In this document: positions 41,785-48,611 of the stretch, piece after piece
Layout of the letters: each line of letters opens with the position of its first letter
How positions within the stretch are numbered: the first letter of the stretch is position 1
Origin: an uncultured Gammaproteobacteria bacterium
GTDB lineage: Bacteria > Pseudomonadota > Gammaproteobacteria > UBA9214
NCBI GenBank assembly: GCA_963773065.1
Contig: CAVYZN010000028.1
Span: 1-64,000 of the forward strand
Direction of reading: 5' to 3'
Length of the DNA stretch: 64,000 bases
Translations under genes and position numbers: made by a program
The notes under the pieces: generated by a model
The model's database searches: none
What the model saw: only the letters and a program-made list of their open reading frames with translations
Told to the model about the DNA's origin: nothing

Positions 41785-42312
41785 ATGACCGACGAGAAGT
41801 CCACCCGTGAGAAATGGCTGCGGGCCTACGATGACATGATGGTGCGGGTCAAAACGGCGATCGAGGAAGCGGAGGAACACACGTTCCCCGCCATCAAGCG
41901 CCATATCGCCAAGGCCCGCGACACGGCCGTCGAGCTGGAGGAACTGACCAGGGACGAGGCCGAGAAGATTGCCTACTTTCTTGAGCGGGACCTGGAGGAT
42001 GCCGGCAAGCACATGGCCGAGAGCGGCCATGAACTGAGCGACTGGCTGCGTTTCGATATCGGTCTGATCGAGGACCGCCTGCTGGAGGTCCTGTTGAAGG
42101 TCGCCGACCATACCCGCCTCGACATGCTGCAGTTTGAACGCGACCTCAAGGAAGGGCCGCTCTACAACGCCGGCGAGGTCACCGGTCCCGGCACGCTGGT
42201 CTGCAACGCCTGCGGCGAGGTCATCCGCTTCCACTCAACCGGTTATATCCCGGAATGCCCCGCCTGCGGGCACACCGTCTACCATCGCAAGTCCGTCACG
42301 GACGAAATCTGA
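41785..42312 (+). CDS. YbeL/DUF1451 zinc-ribbon protein
   Basis: ADHT, YNAGEVTGPGTLVCNAC, CPAC; divergent from leuS. Confidence 0.9.
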   Translation: MTDEKSTREKWLRAYDDMMVRVKTAIEEAEEHTFPAIKRHIAKARDTAVELEELTRDEAEKIAYFLERDLEDAGKHMAESGHELSDWLRFDIGLIEDRLLEVLLKVADHTRLDMLQFERDLKEGPLYNAGEVTGPGTLVCNACGEVIRFHSTGYIPECPACGHTVYHRKSVTDEI

Positions 42313-42479
42313 ACCGGCGGTGACCGCACCACTGAAGAATGGATGGGGTCACCCCTTAGCCAGCCGGTGTTAACAGCGTAAGTAAAGCTCTGTTGAACAT
42401 GTCAACATCATAAAACAACAATGCCATTGATACGGTCCTTTCGCACCCGCTTTTTCACTGAGCGTGATGTCGCGGCATA

Positions 42480-42742
42480 ACCCTGCGCATCAGTCACCCC
42501 TCTGGATCAAGATCGAATCGATGGTCTGATTCAATCCCTGGTACCGTGGGTACCCCACAAAATACTCGGTACCGTCCAGCGTCCAAAAATGAGCATCACA
42601 GAATGTATGGCTGGCCCGAAGGCCTCCAACCCTTGGGTGGCTCGCTGGACGGGCGAAGGGCGTATTCAATGGCCGGCCGGGACCTCCAATCAGAATCTCA
42701 TGGTTGTACCAACCCCATTGCCTGGCTGATCCCGGCCGCCAA
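42480..42742 (-). ncRNA. Putative bridge/seek RNA of the IS110 element (ends approximate)
   Basis: Two stem-loops whose internal loop strands match the target flanks (ATGGGGT, GATTCTGA) and the donor junction (GGATT, AGGGGTGA). Confidence 0.65.
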
Positions 42743-42744
42743 TC

Positions 42745-43752
42745 TTAACCGAACAGACGCGCGGCATCGTAATGGGTCTGATCGCGTAACATGCAGTAAC
42801 TGGCGCGGGCCAATTTGTGCGCCACCGCCCGGATCGCGACGATACCGCTGGTCTGCGCGCGCTTGCGCTCAAAGAAGCGCTTGGCCCGCGCATCAAAGCG
42901 CACGGCGAAGTGGGCCGCTTCGGAGAACGCCCAGGACAGGTACTTGTTGCCGGCCTTGCGGTTGCCTTCGCCCTTCTTCTTGCCGTTGCTGAGGCGCTCG
43001 CTGTTGACGCAGCGGCAGTACGAGGCGTAATTGCCTGGGCTCTTGAAGCGGGTAATCTCGCCCGTCTCAAGCCAAATGGTCATGCCCAGAATCGGCCCCA
43101 CGCCGGTGATGGTCTGCAAAATCTTAAAGGCCGGCGCCACCCGCGCCGCCGCCAACGCGGCCTGTTCCAGCTCGTCAATCTCCCGCTGGAGCGCCCGCTG
43201 CACGCTCAGCAGGCTCTGCGCCGCCAGCTGGTCGTGCCCGGGCGGTAACGGCACGGCAAACTCCGGCTTGCGTATCAGGCTTGCGCTGATCCGCTCTCCG
43301 GTAGAACGCCAGAGCTGGCTCTGAATGCTGATCAGGCGTCCCGCCGCGATCCGCACCAGTTGCATGCGCCGGCGCAGCAGATCGCGCACCGCGCGTTGCT
43401 CCTTGGGATAAATATACCCCGTCGGCAGTATCCCCAGGCGCATCAGGTGCGCCAGCCAGAACGCATCGTGAAGGTCATCGCTGTACTTCAGGCCCTCATA
43501 CTGGCGCACCGCCGCGGTGTTGACCAACCGCAGCGGGTAGCCGGCATCCTGCAATCCATCCACCAGCCAGTACCAATTGAAGGTCGATTCCACGGCAACC
43601 CCCAGCAGCTCCGCCTTGAACGGCTGCAAGGCCTTCAGCGTCACCGCCAGATCATTGGGCAGCCGCCGTTCAAAAACCCGTTTGTCATCCTCATCAATCA
43701 CCACAACGACGTGGTTGTTGGAATGCAGATCAATCCCGCAGTAAAGTGTCAT
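42745..43752 (-). CDS. IS110-family transposase/recombinase (335 aa)
   Basis: GIDLH, AVES, KYSDDLHDA (DEDD domain), TITGVG, LSNG, AVAHKLAR; GGAGG RBS. Confidence 0.95.
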   Translation of the reverse strand: MTLYCGIDLHSNNHVVVVIDEDDKRVFERRLPNDLAVTLKALQPFKAELLGVAVESTFNWYWLVDGLQDAGYPLRLVNTAAVRQYEGLKYSDDLHDAFWLAHLMRLGILPTGYIYPKEQRAVRDLLRRRMQLVRIAAGRLISIQSQLWRSTGERISASLIRKPEFAVPLPPGHDQLAAQSLLSVQRALQREIDELEQAALAAARVAPAFKILQTITGVGPILGMTIWLETGEITRFKSPGNYASYCRCVNSERLSNGKKKGEGNRKAGNKYLSWAFSEAAHFAVRFDARAKRFFERKRAQTSGIVAIRAVAHKLARASYCMLRDQTHYDAARLFG

Positions 43753-43922
43753 AACAGCCTCCTGGGTTGTGTTGAGTGACCAACACCAGTGTATACACCG
43801 GTGCCAACCACTCAGGAGGCTGGCTAGAGGATTATCAGACTCGATTGATCGGATGCACGAAAAACCGTGGTCTGTCCCGATTTTCCCGAAGGGGACGCCA
43901 CAAATCGCCAAGGAGATGAGAG

Positions 43923-45330
43923 ATGACAGAACGATCCAAAACACTCGCGAAGCTGCCCGAAGGGTTCATCGGGGCGCTCCGCGCCGGGCTCCGGGGCCAG
44001 GTCCTGACCCAGGAAGATGCCGGATACGACGAGGCTCGCGCCGTGTACAACGCGATGATCCAGCGCAGGCCGGGTGCGATCGCGCGGGTCGCGGACGTGG
44101 CGGACGTCATCGCGTGCGTCAACGCCGCGCGCGAGGCGGGCGTGCTGGTCGCGGTGCGCGGGGGTGGCCACAACGCGGGCGGTCTCGGTGTCGTCGACGG
44201 CGGTCTCGTCGTCGACCTCTGCGGTCTACGCGGCATTCGCGTTGACCCGCGGGCCCGCACCGTCCGCGTGGAAGGCGGCGCCACGTGGGGCGAACGTCGA
44301 CCACGCCACACATCCCTTCGGCCTGGCCACACCGTGCGGCTTCATCTCGACCACCGGCGTGGGCGGGCTGACACTCGGTGGCGGCACCGGCAATCTCACG
44401 CGAAGTTGCGGGCTGACGATCGACAATCTGATTTCCGCCGACGTGGTGCTTGCGGATGGGCGCATGGTTACGACAAGCGCCGACGAGCACCCCGACCTTT
44501 TTTGGGCGCTTCGCGGTGGCGGGGGCAACTTCGGCATCGTCACATCGTTCCTGTTCCGCGCCCATCCCGTGAGCATGGTCATCGGCGGCCCCACGTTCTG
44601 GGCGCTCGAGCAGGCCGAGGACGCCCTGCGCGGGTTTCAGAATCTGATCGAAAACGCACCGGAGGAGCTCGGCGGGTTCTTCGCGTTCCTCACCGTGCCG
44701 CCCGTACCGCCGTTCCCGGAGGACCTCCACGGCCGCAAGGTCGCTGGCGTCGTGTGGTGTTTCAACGGGCGCCAGGAGGCCTTCGACCGAACCGTCAACC
44801 CGCTCATCTCGGCCGTGCCGCCGTTACTCCACGCGCCTCACGAGCTCCCTTACCCGGCGCTCCAGTCGTTCTTCGACCCGCTCTATCCGGCTGGGCTCCA
44901 GTGGTACTGGCGCGCGGACTTCATGGGCAGGCTCTCGGACGACGCCATCCGCGAGCACGTGCGGCACGGGGCCACGCTGCCGACGGGGCACTCGACGGTA
45001 CACCTCTACCCATTGAATGGCGCGGCCGCGCGCGTGGGCGCGGGCGACACGGCGTACCGCCACCGCGACGCGTTCTGGTCGCAGGTCATCGTGGGCGTCG
45101 ACCCCGACCCAGGCAACGCCGACACCCTTCGCGACTGGACGGTCGGCTACTACGAGGCGCTCCACCCGTTCTCGACGGGCGCGGCCTACGTGAATTTCAT
45201 GATGGACGAGGGCGCGGATCGCATCCGCGCGACCTATGGGGCGAACTACGATCGCCTCGCGAAGATCAAGCGGCAGTATGACCCCGACAACTTCTTCCGC
45301 GTGAACCAGAACGTGCCGCCGGCCGCGTAG
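43923..45330 (+). CDS. FAD-binding oxidoreductase, berberine-bridge type (frameshift near 44290)
   Basis: VRGGGHN, TGVGGLTLGGG, LFWALRGGGGNFGIVT, YVNF, YDPDNFF. Confidence 0.93.
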
Positions 45331-46206: not shown

Positions 46207-46334
46207 GGATGGGGTCAGACTCGATTGATCGGATGTGAATTTCCCTATTGGGAATGGATGGTGGATGGGAATCAATCGAAGGAAATGGGGGACAGACCAC
46301 GTTTTGACTAAAAACGTGGTCTGTCCCCCATTTC
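46207..46334. repeat. REP cluster next to the RAYT gene
   Basis: ggatggggtcagactcgattgatcggatg (46207-35); inverted pair gaaatgggggacagaccacgtttt/aaaacgtggtctgtcccccatttc (46282-46334); related copies at 43861-86 and 47128-49. Confidence 0.88.
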
Positions 46335-47025
46335 GCCCCGGCTTTGCCGGTCTTCCCGCATTTCCGGGCATGACGCGTCGTTGCAGCATGCAGGAGACTT
46401 CTACCTTGAAGCGGTCGTTACCCAGGGCGTAATTGCCATTGGTGGCGGTACGAATTTCAGCGATCAGGTTAAGGTCAATGCCGGTGTCAAACAGACGCCG
46501 GTAATTGGCAAGACGCGATGCCTCCGTCTCGACGAGCGCCAGGTATTCGGCATGCGGCGTCAGCCCGTCTCGGCGCGAGCCCTGACCGTTGGCAGGGTAG
46601 CTTGACCAGCGGTATTCCGCCGGGTGTGTCGCCATGCCGGCGCGCACCGGGTTCATTTCGATATACCGGTAACAGGCGAGTACATAGGTGCTTTCCTGAA
46701 CCAGGCAGGAACGGAAGCGGCCTTCCCAGAGAGTGCCGCTGCGCCGGTAGCTGCGGTTGATGTATTGGATATAACGCTGACCGAGGTGTTTCATCAATAG
46801 CGCGGCGCTATTATGTCGTTCCGGGGTGAGGAGCAGGTGTACATGATTTGTCATCTGGCAATAGGCATGTATCCTGCAGCCATAGTTAACAGCCTGCTGA
46901 GCCAGGGTATCGAGATAATAGTAGTGGTAATCGCTGTGGTCGTAGAAGCAGGCGGTGCGATTATTGCCACGCTGGATGATATGCCAAGGTATGCACGGTA
47001 CGACCAGACGGGCACGACGCGGCAT
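46308..47025 (-). CDS. REP-associated tyrosine (HUH/Y1) transposase, RAYT
   Basis: MPRRAR, HIIQRGNNR, MTNHVHLL, LWEGRF, YIEMNPVRA, YRWSS; the ORF as read runs to 45832, but removing one G from a G5 run gives a stop at 46308. Confidence 0.92.
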
Positions 47026-47090: not shown

Positions 47091-48611
47091 TCAGTCACGC
47101 GAGTACCGTCGCGTCAGGAAACCATGGAAACGTGGTCTGTCCCCCATTTGCCACACCAGCAGCAGGCACATCACGGTCAGGATCACGACGGGCGTATTGC
47201 CCAACAGCACATAAGGCGTCGCGCCCTGGCGGGGCGTGACGGTTCCCGTGACCACCGCCTCCTCGAACTGGCGGCTGCGGGCGATGACCCGGCCGTTCTC
47301 ATCGATGATCGCGGATATGCCCGTATTGGTGGCTCGCAGCATGGGCCGGCCGGTTTCCTTGGACCGCAGCCGCGCCATTTCCAGGTGCTGGTGCGGCGCG
47401 AGCGAATCGCCAAACCAGCCATCGTTGCTCACGTTGACCAGCAAGGCGGCCTGCGGCAGTGCCCGACGGATCTCCTCGCCGAATACCACCTCGAAACAGA
47501 TCGAGGTGGCCACGGGATAGCCGGCGGCCTCCAGCAGGGGTTGCGTCGCCTCCCCGCCGGAGAAATCCGCATTCGGCACCGCCAGGGCGTCCAGGCTGTC
47601 GCCCAGCACCCGGCGCAGCGGCAGGTACTCGCCGAACGGCACCAGGTGCTGCTTGTAGTAGAAGCGCCGTTCCCCGCCGATGGACACCACGCTGTTGTAG
47701 TAGCGCCAGGTGGCCTGGTCCAGCACCGGAATTCCGGTCAGCAGCACGGCGCCCGACTGGCGCAGCCCGGTTTCGATTTGCGGGATGAGGCTGTCCTGCA
47801 CCTGGTCATAAAACGCGGGTATGGCGGTTTCGGGCCAGACCACCACATCCGTCGCCGGCAATTTGAAGGTGAGTTCCGTATAGCGCGTCAGGGTATGGGT
47901 CAGGTTTCCCGGCGCCCATTTGGTTTCCTGGGCGATGTTCCCCTGAACCAGCGCCACCTTGAGAGGCGCGCCGCGCGCTTCGGTCCATGCAACACGGTCG
48001 AGCAGGTAGCCGCCCGCCCAGATCACGCAGAGGACGATCAGACTCGGCAGGCGCGCCCGGTTTCGCACCAGCGCCACCAGCAAGGCGGCCGTCAGCGCCA
48101 CGGCCAGCCCGACGCCATAGACTCCCGAGAGCGGCGCGTAGCCGGCCAGCGGGCCGTCAATCTGGCTGCTCCCGACAGTCAGCCAGGGAAAACCGGTGAA
48201 CAGCCAGCCGCGCAGCCATTCACTCAGCACCCAGCCGGCCGGAAACGCGACCAGGAGCCGCCAGTCCGCAGCCGGCAGGCAGCGCTTGAGACAATAACCC
48301 AGCAAGGCGGGATACAGGCTCAGAAAGACCACCAGCGCCACCGTCACCAGCACGGCAGCCGGCGCGGGTACATGCCCGTAGGTATGCACGCTGACGTACA
48401 CCCAGGAAACACCCGCGCCGAAGTACCCCAGTCCGAACAGGACACCGTGGCGCAAAGCCTGGCGCGGGCTATCCCGCAGCCACTGGTTGAACAGCACGGC
48501 GAGCGACAGAAACGCGAGCGGGTACCAGCCCAGGGGGGCGAAGGCGGTCACGCCCAGCGCGCCGGCAATCAGCACGAAGATCCCGCCGAAGCGGACAGTC
48601 AGGTTGGTCAC
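47091..48611 (-). CDS. lnt: Apolipoprotein N-acyltransferase
   Basis: FTGFPW, VQGNI, WPETA, KQHLVPFGEY, ICFE, SNDGWF. Confidence 0.96.
   Translation of the reverse strand: MTNLTVRFGGIFVLIAGALGVTAFAPLGWYPLAFLSLAVLFNQWLRDSPRQALRHGVLFGLGYFGAGVSWVYVSVHTYGHVPAPAAVLVTVALVVFLSLYPALLGYCLKRCLPAADWRLLVAFPAGWVLSEWLRGWLFTGFPWLTVGSSQIDGPLAGYAPLSGVYGVGLAVALTAALLVALVRNRARLPSLIVLCVIWAGGYLLDRVAWTEARGAPLKVALVQGNIAQETKWAPGNLTHTLTRYTELTFKLPATDVVVWPETAIPAFYDQVQDSLIPQIETGLRQSGAVLLTGIPVLDQATWRYYNSVVSIGGERRFYYKQHLVPFGEYLPLRRVLGDSLDALAVPNADFSGGEATQPLLEAAGYPVATSICFEVVFGEEIRRALPQAALLVNVSNDGWFGDSLAPHQHLEMARLRSKETGRPMLRATNTGISAIIDENGRVIARSRQFEEAVVTGTVTPRQGATPYVLLGNTPVVILTVMCLLLVWQMGDRPRFHGFLTRRYSRD

What the first reader, a model, noticed from the sequence alone, without database searches (positions are those of the whole stretch)
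42480..42742. Readable bridge RNA programming an IS110 recombinase against a REP repeat
Seen: on the transposase strand, the first stem-loop after the stop (outer stem ggccggga/tcccggcc, + coordinates 42675-82 and 42730-37) has ATGGGGT on one loop strand (42712-18), identical to the left target flank ggATGGGGTca. The other loop strand has GATTCTGA (42690-97), the reverse complement of the core plus right flank TCAGAcTC with one mismatch. A second stem-loop has GGATT (42533-37), matching the element end at 43829-33, and AGGGGTGA (42494-501), an 8/8 match to the other end at 42349-56. Known: IS110-family bridge RNAs (IS621) have a target-binding and a donor-binding loop, each with left and right guides, and IS1111-type elements encode the RNA downstream of the gene. 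Inference: this is an RNA-guided recombinase with an apparent 3-nt TCA core whose four guides can be read directly and which targets the ATGGGGTCAGA REP family. The guides are short, so the case rests on all four sitting in the expected loop positions. I cannot tell whether this element has been described.
Basis: partly seen in the sequence, partly recalled or inferred. Interest (0 to 1): 0.9.

Follow-up and report, generated by a model that had tools for sequence, protein, structure and literature searches.

The report
IS1111-type insertion sequence with bridge RNA
A 1.5-kb jumping gene of a known RNA-guided family carries, behind its recombinase gene, a folded RNA whose loops spell out the genomic repeat it inserted into; it is a clean new example of a known mechanism, not a new kind.

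Summary
The element (minus strand, 42349-43837, 1486 bp counting one TGA) is an IS110-family, IS1111-group insertion sequence. It has a 335-aa DEDD recombinase, 9-bp subterminal inverted repeats and a 393-nt downstream non-coding region. An intact copy of its target lies 2.4 kb away (46207-46222).

Three of the four proposed guides hold. In about 60 homologous elements from other genomes, the two strands of the first internal loop co-vary with the right and left flanks (54 and 47 guide/flank pairs; 0 of 5000 permutations each). The octamer AGGGGTGA (42494-42501) co-varies with the right element end.

The fourth guide, GGATT (42533-42537), is rejected. It lies in the paired 5' arm of a variable hairpin, and 0 of 17 relatives with the same left end have it. 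A better but weakly supported candidate is GAGTATTTTG (42558-42567).

The donor-binding part is a multiloop, not a second stem-loop. It contains a further loop that weakly tracks the target.

The target is a repeat of about 19 copies, often in inverted pairs.

Verdict: a new member of a known kind (bridge RNA / seekRNA of IS1111 elements, described in 2024). Expression and activity of this single copy are not shown.

The parts
42349..43837 (-). Whole insertion sequence including both copies of the TGA trinucleotide (1486 bp counting one)
   Evidence: Flanks joined give GAGTC-TGA-CCCCATCC, which occurs uninterrupted at 46207-46222. Ends are homologous to those of about 60 relatives.
43835..43837 (-). 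TGA at the left junction
   Evidence: TGA in 54 of 58 homologous left junctions.
43818..43826 (-). Left subterminal inverted repeat TAGCCAGCC, 8 nt inside the end
42745..43752 (-). Recombinase gene, 335 aa plus stop
   Evidence: Pfam DEDD_Tnp_IS110 65.4 bits and Transposase_20 59.2 bits. NCBIfam NF033542 'IS110 family RNA-guided transposase' 184.1 bits, cut-off 140. Aligns to ISCro4 and IS621 chains.
42673..42739 (-). Target-binding module: stem P1 (42728-39 with 42673-84) enclosing an internal loop and a small inner hairpin (42709-11 / 42701-03)
   Evidence: RNAalifold and pair counts on 29 sequences. Helix 1 has 14 of 15 pairs with changes on both sides.
42712..42720 (-). Right-target guide CAAUGGGGU (complement of the transposase-strand right flank A+CCCCAT..)
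   Evidence: 7/9 to this copy's flank, 9/9 to the commonest repeat form. Family covariation 7.30/9 against 4.94 permuted, 0/5000.
42690..42697 (-). Left-target guide GAUUCUGA (same sense as left flank GAGTC+TGA, one mismatch)
   Evidence: Family covariation 7.00/9 against 5.22 permuted, 0/5000
42481..42660 (-). Donor-binding multiloop domain closed by 42653-60 / 42481-88
   Evidence: Helix 3: 5 of 8 pairs with changes on both sides, 90.9% of cells paired. Coordinates.
42572..42652 (-). Module 2: second loop of the same shape inside the multiloop (5' strand 42629-38, 3' strand 42585-607)
   Evidence: Helix 4: 10 of 12 pairs with changes on both sides. Its strands weakly track the target near the crossover.
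42558..42567 (-). Candidate right-donor guide GAGUAUUUUG (7 of 10 pairs with left end GATAATCCTC)
   Evidence: Best column of an unbiased family scan, 7.19/10 against a mean of 3.07, sd 0.77. Covariation is weak, 159/5000. The same column also scores best in the other sense (6.16).
42533..42537 (-).
   Evidence: Absent in 0 of 17 relatives with the same left end.
42494..42501 (-). Left-donor guide AGGGGUGA (same sense as right end AGGGG+TGA)
   Evidence: The pentamer equals the right-end pentamer in 62 of 63 elements. That includes 5 of the 6 elements whose end is not ATGGG.
42368..42373 (-). -35-like TTAACA (TTGACN in most relatives). After circularisation it would lie 17 nt from GATAAT formed across the joined ends.
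   Evidence: Promoter function is inferred, not tested.
42357..42365 (-). Right subterminal inverted repeat GGCTGGCTA
42349..42351 (-). TGA at the right junction
46207..46230 (+). Uninterrupted copy of the target repeat (GG)ATGGGGTCAGACTCGATTGATC

Best explanation
This is an IS1111-group member of the IS110 family. Its DEDD recombinase is directed by an RNA encoded in the roughly 260 nt after the stop codon (about 42481-42739, minus strand).

Shown by comparison:
- The RNA folds into a stem whose internal loop carries two target guides. The 5' strand is complementary to the transposase-strand right flank. The 3' strand is identical to the left flank plus TGA.
- A second, multiloop domain follows. 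Its 3' strand repeats the right element end plus TGA.

Inferred from the IS621 and ISEc11 work:
- The element excises as a circle.
- The joined ends create a promoter (TTAACA, 17 nt, GATAAT).
- The recombinase-RNA complex pairs the target loop with both strands of the repeat GAGTC-TGA-CCCCAT, and the donor domain with the joined ends.
- Strands are exchanged at or beside the TGA.

The occupied site is a near-cognate member of a repeat family of about 19 copies. It has one mismatch in the left guide and two distal mismatches in the right guide.
For: Protein family.

Ends and empty site.

Consensus structure: 56 pairs on 29 sequences, 88.3% of cells paired against 36-41% when partners are slid. 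44 pairs have changes on both sides. 0 of 500 shuffles reach the observed values.

Guide covariation:
- Right-target guide, 54 guide/flank pairs: 7.30 of 9 matches against 4.94 +/- 0.15 permuted, 0/5000. 28 of 54 have an exact run of 7 or more.
- Left-target guide, 47 pairs: 7.00 against 5.22 +/- 0.16, 0/5000. 25 of 47 have a run of 7 or more.
- Opposite-sense controls are null.
- Relatives with quite different targets carry 9/9 matching guides: L040 GACCCTTGT, L029 TAACAAGCA, L068 GATAAACAC, L054 GCGTAGTGT, L027 GTTTGAGAC.

Donor guide: it matches the right end in 62 of 63 elements. Matched variants are AGGGG (this copy), ATGAG (L040, L054) and ATGGC (L032, L036).

Guide order: the top-strand complement lies 5' of the bottom-strand complement, as reported for IS1111 seekRNAs (PMC11187229, section 9 read).

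Multiloop donor site: as noted for IS1111 orthologues in PMC11208160 (passage read).

Expression hint: a 174-nt contig from a metatranscriptome run equals 42497-42669. This is weak, because an RNA library can hold DNA.
Against: - There is no direct evidence that this RNA is made or bound by the recombinase. One search gives contigs only.
- There is a single copy in a 33-contig draft genome, so movement in this genome is not shown.
- The left guide has a U-C mismatch to its own site.
- The -35 is TTAACA where most relatives have TTGACN.
- The right-donor guide is not settled. Covariation reaches only 159/5000, and the best column scores nearly as well in the opposite sense (7.19 against 6.16).
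- The serine motif reads SNG, and in the pairwise alignment the N, not the S, aligns with the ISCro4 SG serine.
- Permutation tests ignore relatedness of the elements.
- Three loci with misaligned loops (L062, L065, L082) and L074 were dropped before the counts.
Confidence: 0.85

Rival explanations
1. Seek-RNA only. The RNA guides target choice through the first module alone. The element ends are recognised by the protein through the subterminal inverted repeats. The internal octamer that copies the right end has another role, for example a DNA-level secondary end as in the A'/B' boxes of ISPpu9.
For: For ISEc11 an 82-nt RNA holding only the target matches sufficed for movement (PMC11187229, section 10 read). 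The right-donor guide here is weak. ISPpu9 uses internal copies of its end boxes (PMC12288879, passages read).
Against: The octamer lies in an unpaired strand of a multiloop closed by stems that co-vary. It is not preceded by a copy of the subterminal repeat. It changes together with the right end in three independent variants. No relative among the 63 ends at the internal site.
Confidence: 0.1
2. Correct architecture but a dead or dormant copy. The element arrived once, sits in a near-cognate site and no longer moves.
For: Single copy. One mismatch in the left guide. Weaker -35. No better-matching free site: 0 exact hits to the guide-predicted 16-mer in the genome.
Against: The reading frame is intact and of full length. 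All stems are kept. Guide and right end carry the same private T-to-G change, which argues for selection on pairing after divergence. Repeat copies with one mismatch to the predicted site exist.
Confidence: 0.3
3. The matches are chance, and the region is only a 3' untranslated region or terminator.
For: The guides are short. The single-sequence fold is not exceptional (z = -1.62). No Rfam family matches.
Against: Covariation of loop strands with flanks: 0/5000. Covariation of stems: 0/500.
Confidence: 0.01

Closest known systems
seekRNA elements of the IS1111 family: ISEc11, ISPa11, ISKpn4, ISPst6 (Siddiquee et al. 2024, PMC11187229; outline and sections 6, 9, 10, 13, 14 read)
   Same: - Recombinase of 330-350 aa.
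- Subterminal inverted repeats.
- Long non-coding region downstream.
- RNA with a top-strand complement 5' of a bottom-strand complement, overlapping at the insertion point.
- Natural retargeting among relatives.
- P1 module (67 nt) in the size range of the short seekRNA; P1 plus module 2 (about 169 nt) in that of the long seekRNA.
   Different: That paper describes no donor matches. Here one donor match is clear.
IS621 bridge RNA (Durrant et al. 2024, PMC11208160; Hiraizumi et al. 2024, PMC11208158; passages read)
   Same: - DEDD plus Tnp-domain recombinase (aligned, E = 4.6e-06).
- Target loop and donor loop, each with a left and a right guide, overlapping a short core.
- Promoter formed across the joined ends.
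   Different: - The RNA lies downstream, not upstream.
- Guide order is reversed.
- The donor site is a multiloop with an added loop.
- The shared trinucleotide is TGA rather than a CT dinucleotide.
- The nucleotides that match the non-cognate partner lie at the ends of the L guides rather than beside the R guides (inference).
ISPpu9 / ISPpu10 of Pseudomonas putida and ISPa11: IS110-family elements that insert into REP/BIME repeats (PMC12288879, passages read; ISPa11 target in PMC11187229 section 13)
   Same: Site- and orientation-specific insertion into a short extragenic repeat that occurs in inverted pairs and clusters.
   Different: Different repeat and different host. No Asr9/Ssr9-type RNAs or duplicated end boxes were seen here.
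ISGsu4-family annotation in plasmid records
   Same: The only named IS among the 15 listed plasmid hits, about 50% amino-acid identity over 99% of the protein.
   Different: Too distant to be the same IS. The best relatives (71-62% identity) are unnamed copies in gammaproteobacterial genomes and MAGs. ISfinder could not be searched.

Membership tests
IS110 family, IS1111 group | DEDD (RuvC-like) N-terminal domain plus PF02371 C-terminal domain | tested here: met
   PF01548 65.4 bits and PF02371 59.2 bits. NF033542 184.1 bits against cut-off 140.
IS110 family, IS1111 group | Catalytic D, E, D, D and the serine of the S/T-G motif | tested here: inconclusive
   E55, D93 and D96 align with the acidic residues of ISCro4. 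D8 is read by eye in GIDLH. The serine region reads LSNGKKKG, and in the alignment the N, not the S, faces the SG serine. The motif NGKKKGEG is shared by the clade.
IS110 family, IS1111 group | Subterminal inverted repeats of 7-17 bp | tested here: met
   TAGCCAGCC / GGCTGGCTA, 9 bp, 8 nt and 5 nt inside the ends
IS110 family, IS1111 group | Longer non-coding region downstream of the recombinase gene; recombinase of 330-350 aa | tested here: met
   393 nt downstream against 82 nt upstream; 335 aa
IS110 family, IS1111 group | Specific target and orientation, shown by an uninterrupted target | tested here: met
   Exact 16-nt empty site at 46207-22. L019 has the same left flank, and L020's guides spell the same target.
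Bridge RNA / seekRNA | Internal loop with two guides that pair with opposite strands of the target and co-vary with it | tested here: met
   (0/5000 for both guides). Sense controls are null. The guides are unpaired in the consensus structure.
Bridge RNA / seekRNA | Guide matching the right element end (left-donor guide) | tested here: met
   62 of 63 elements. 5 of 6 non-consensus ends are matched. The miss, L084, would be a G-T wobble.
Bridge RNA / seekRNA | Guide complementary to the left element end (right-donor guide) | tested here: inconclusive
The candidate 42558-67 is the best family-wide column, but covariation is 159/5000 and the sense is ambiguous.
Bridge RNA / seekRNA | RNA is expressed, binds the recombinase and is needed for movement | not testable with these tools
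   Only a 174-nt contig of a metatranscriptome run within the domain
Bridge RNA / seekRNA | Curated RNA family model | tested here: not met
   No Rfam 15 family at E up to 1 apart from a chance snoRNA hit of 20.8 bits. Rfam may simply hold no model of this RNA.
REP / BIME repeats (as target) | Short repeat in many copies, often in inverted pairs | tested here: met
   19 hits at up to 5 mismatches, with four inverted pairs 60-80 bp apart. Whether the copies are extragenic was not checked.
REP / BIME repeats (as target) | Association with a RAYT (Y1 transposase) flanked by the repeat | tested here: inconclusive
   A Y1_Tnp gene at 46654-47025 lies about 430 bp from the intact copy. It is flanked by a different repeat, GGGGACAGACCACG, which also lies beside the occupied site.

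The most novel reading that the evidence does not exclude
The RNA of this IS1111 clade has three guide-bearing loops, not two.

The middle loop (42572-42652) lies inside the donor-binding multiloop and reads the 8-9 bp around the crossover of the target. Its 5' strand follows the complement of the core and the first right-flank bases. Its 3' strand follows the last left-flank bases plus TG.

Together with this, the last nucleotide of each L guide matches the product junction rather than the substrate. This looks like a handshake on the opposite strand from IS621.

The middle loop could hold the exchanged junctions or serve excision. That would give a function to the 'long seekRNA', whose role is open in the literature.
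Probability: 0.25. Interest if true: 0.6.

Novelty: new member of a known kind. Interest (0 to 1): 0.35.

Why it matters
As a single element it is ordinary. RNA-guided IS110/IS1111 recombinases have been known since 2024, and bridge RNAs were predicted in 93% of catalogued IS1111 elements (PMC11208160).

Its value is as a worked example. About 60 natural relatives with many different targets let the two target guides and one donor guide be read without experiment. They also give a covariation-supported structure of an IS1111-type RNA, including a multiloop donor site.

Two side observations could help in designing IS1111-type editors if they hold up:
- a third loop that tracks the target;
- the rule that the left junction keeps the donor trinucleotide and the right junction the target's.

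Tried and rejected
Rfam scan of 42000-44200 at E up to 1: only a chance snoRNA hit.

Single-sequence fold of the 421-nt region: z = -1.62, not informative by itself.

Search for further copies in the window's own genome with 1601 nt: only the element itself. Four other IS110-family genes are unrelated at the DNA level.

DNA search with the non-coding region in 60 relatives' genomes: 2 weak hits only.

My candidate has weak covariation.

Module 2 against donor ends, both senses: no signal. The one exception is its 5' strand against the right end (36/1000), which I attribute to the likeness of the right end to the complement of the right flank.

Empty-site search for L006-type targets: 3 hits, no repeat family, uninformative. 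The first pattern, run on five genomes, was too short to be useful.

Sequencing runs: 20 rows hold part of the stretch and none holds half of its words. The two RNA runs have small shares. Parts of the stretch without contig cover in the RNA runs say nothing.

ISfinder could not be searched. [quoted passage not shown] The claim that a third target-tracking loop is not described rests only on searches and the passages read.

Not used: structure prediction, complex prediction, protein-atlas and large protein searches. They were not needed for the question.

Full report
THE OBSERVATION. On the minus strand the window holds, 5' to 3':
- left flank ...GATCAATCGAGTC, then TGA (43837-43835);
- TAATCCTC, then the repeat TAGCCAGCC (43826-43818);
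- an ATG at 43752 opening a 335-codon frame that stops at 42745-42747;
- 393 nt of non-coding sequence;
- GGCTGGCTA (42365-42357), AGGGG, TGA (42351-42349);
- right flank CCCCATCC.

Joining the flanks with one TGA gives a 16-mer that occurs uninterrupted at 46207-46222 on the other strand. The boundaries, and the TGA shared by both junctions at this copy, are therefore established.

THE PROTEIN. It matches Pfam DEDD_Tnp_IS110 and Transposase_20. It also matches NCBIfam NF033542, 'IS110 family RNA-guided transposase', at 184 bits against a cut-off of 140. It aligns with the solved ISCro4 and IS621 recombinases (E = 1.3e-07 and 4.6e-06). E55, D93 and D96 face their acidic residues. The serine motif reads SNG and does not align cleanly.

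Three features are those that define the IS1111 group in the papers read (PMC11187229 section 6; PMC11208160 passages):
- nine-bp subterminal inverted repeats;
- a short left non-coding end and a long right one;
- a protein length of 335 aa.

RELATIVES. A scan of one genome per species found 446 stretches encoding relatives. The best 80 (50-71% identity) were fetched. Using the conserved ends (TGA-TAATCNTN-TAGCC... and ...GGCTA-ATGGG-TGA), I assigned both ends, or the right end only, in 63 elements including this one. L074 was dropped for an unclear end. L062, L065 and L082 were left out of the target-loop counts because insertions spoil their alignment there.

STRUCTURE. RNAalifold on 29 non-redundant non-coding regions, with a few pairs added by me, gives 56 pairs in 7 helices:
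- 88.3% of cells are paired, against 36-41% when partners are slid by 1-3 columns;
- 44 pairs show changes on both sides;
- none of 500 shuffles reaches the observed values.

The first domain has stem P1 (42728-39 / 42673-84) continued by CCA/TGG. This encloses an internal loop whose far side is a small TGG...CCA hairpin.

The second domain is closed by 42653-60 / 42481-88. Inside it, in order, are:
- a branch I call module 2 (stem 42643-52 / 42572-81), built like the first domain;
- a single strand (42558-67);
- hairpin P;
- hairpin Q (42533-38 / 42509-14);
- the single strand GAUCCAG-AGGGGUGA (42508-42494).

This is the multiloop arrangement that Durrant et al. mention for many IS1111 orthologues (PMC11208160, passage read).

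TARGET GUIDES. I took the 10 nt before the inner hairpin and the 10 nt before the closing TTGG in every element and compared them with the flanks.
- The 5' strand matches the reverse complement of the right junction trinucleotide plus flank at 7.30 of 9 positions. Permuted value 4.94 +/- 0.15; 0 of 5000 permutations; 54 distinct guide/flank pairs; 28 with an exact run of 7 or more.
- The 3' strand matches the left flank plus trinucleotide at 7.00 of 9. Permuted value 5.22 +/- 0.16; 0 of 5000; 47 pairs; 25 with a run of 7 or more.
- Opposite-sense controls give nothing.

Elements with unrelated targets carry perfectly matching nonamers, for example L040, L029, L068, L054 and L027. For this copy the values are 7 of 9 (run of 7) and 7 of 9 (run of 5). 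The right guide CAAUGGGGU is 9/9 to the commonest form of the repeat, ACCCCATTG. The left guide has U where the site has G. L020 carries CGAGUCUGA, the exact left flank of the site occupied here. The guide order is the one reported for IS1111 seekRNAs, with the top-strand complement first (PMC11187229, section 9).

DONOR GUIDES. The octamer before CUGG equals the last five bases of the element plus trinucleotide. The pentamer agrees in 62 of 63 elements. Of the six elements whose end is not ATGGG, five have the same change in the RNA:
- this copy, AGGGG;
- L040 and L054, ATGAG;
- L032 and L036, ATGGC.

L084 (ATGGA against AUGGG) would be a G-T wobble.

It forms the 5' arm of hairpin Q. That hairpin varies freely, and none of 17 aligned relatives with the identical left end has GGATT there.

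An unbiased scan for complementarity to the left end picks 42558-42567 (GAGUAUUUUG). It scores 7.19 of 10 family-wide, against 3.07 +/- 0.77 over all columns. This is the strand between CC and UGG that corresponds in position to the right-target guide. However, the left end hardly varies. It overlaps the presumed -10, and covariation is weak (159 of 5000). The same column is also the best in the other sense (6.16). I call it a candidate only.

PROMOTER AND LIFE CYCLE (INFERRED). Joining right and left ends would place TTAACA (42373-42368; TTGACN in most relatives) 17 nt from GATAAT. A motif of this form is found in 41 of 58 joined ends with my pattern. Junction promoters of this kind are described for this family (PMC12288879 and PMC13626964, passages read).

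THE TARGET. The repeat (TCA)ATGGGGTCAGACTCGATTGATC has 19 hits at up to 5 mismatches in the 3.84-Mb draft, with four inverted pairs 60-80 bp apart.

A second repeat, GGGGACAGACCACG (15 copies at up to 1 mismatch), flanks a Y1-transposase gene at 46654-47025. It also lies next to both the intact and the occupied copy of the target repeat.

'REP/BIME-like' is therefore a fair name, but the link to a RAYT is indirect.

WHAT REMAINS OPEN.

Expression rests on one 174-nt contig of a metatranscriptome run that equals 42497-42669. The copy is single.

Module 2 tracks the target near the crossover in 28 non-redundant elements:
- last 5 nt of its 5' strand: 4.14/5 against 3.24 +/- 0.14;
- trinucleotide before TG in its 3' strand: 2.04/3 against 1.40 +/- 0.12;
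- 0 of 5000 permutations for both.

Its role is unknown. These tests do not correct for relatedness.

Left and right junction trinucleotides differ in 23 of 57 elements. The left is TGA in 54 of 58. In the genome of L075, uninterrupted look-alikes of the target mostly carry the right-junction form: T in 22 of the 47 rows I could read, A in 6, with 48 hits against 2 in the control. So the right junction seems to keep the target's trinucleotide and the left junction the donor's. This would fit the top-strand insertion proposed in a preprint of which I read only the abstract (10.1101/2025.10.25.684509).

COMPARISON AND VERDICT. The element works like, and by the tested features belongs to, the IS1111 group of RNA-guided IS110 recombinases. 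It is a new member, with at most 71% identity to any fetched relative and about 50% to the only named family seen (ISGsu4).

The fourth guide and the 'second stem-loop' are wrong.

Noticed in passing
window 42572-42652 (minus strand): A second loop of the same build as the target-binding loop sits inside the donor-binding multiloop. Its two strands weakly follow the target bases next to the crossover (0/5000 permutations, 28 elements).
   Followed up: partly
L005-L084 junctions; G061: The left junction trinucleotide is TGA in 54 of 58 elements. The right junction varies: TGA 36, TGT 12, CGA 6, TGG 5, others 3. The last base of the donor guide equals the right-junction third base in 14 of the 20 elements where that base is not A. 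Uninterrupted target look-alikes in the genome of L075 mostly carry the right-junction form.
   Followed up: partly
window 46654-47025 (minus), 46288-46330, 47131-47144, 43866-43879: A Y1-transposase (RAYT-like, PF01797 47.9 bits) gene is flanked by copies of the repeat GGGGACAGACCACG. The same repeat lies beside the IS left flank and 60 nt from the intact target copy.
   Followed up: partly
window 42696, 42706-42707, 42717-42720: Contigs of two metagenome DNA runs hold variants of the element, mostly 90-99% alike, whose differences include positions inside both target guides.
   Followed up: no
L042, about 558-594 nt after the stop codon: The right end (TTGACA box, subterminal repeat, TAATGGG-TGN) is present twice in tandem, 33 nt apart.
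   Followed up: no
G000 contigs C16:71578-72645, C32:198803-199783, C23:178424-179377, C3:21109-21693: Four further IS110-family recombinase genes in the same genome, one with an internal stop. They are not similar to this element at the DNA level.
   Followed up: no
window 42349-42356 with 42343-42348: The right junction AGGGG-TGA-CCCCAT is nearly palindromic: the element's right end resembles the complement of the right flank. The same holds in most relatives (ATGGG-TGA-CCCC).
   Followed up: no
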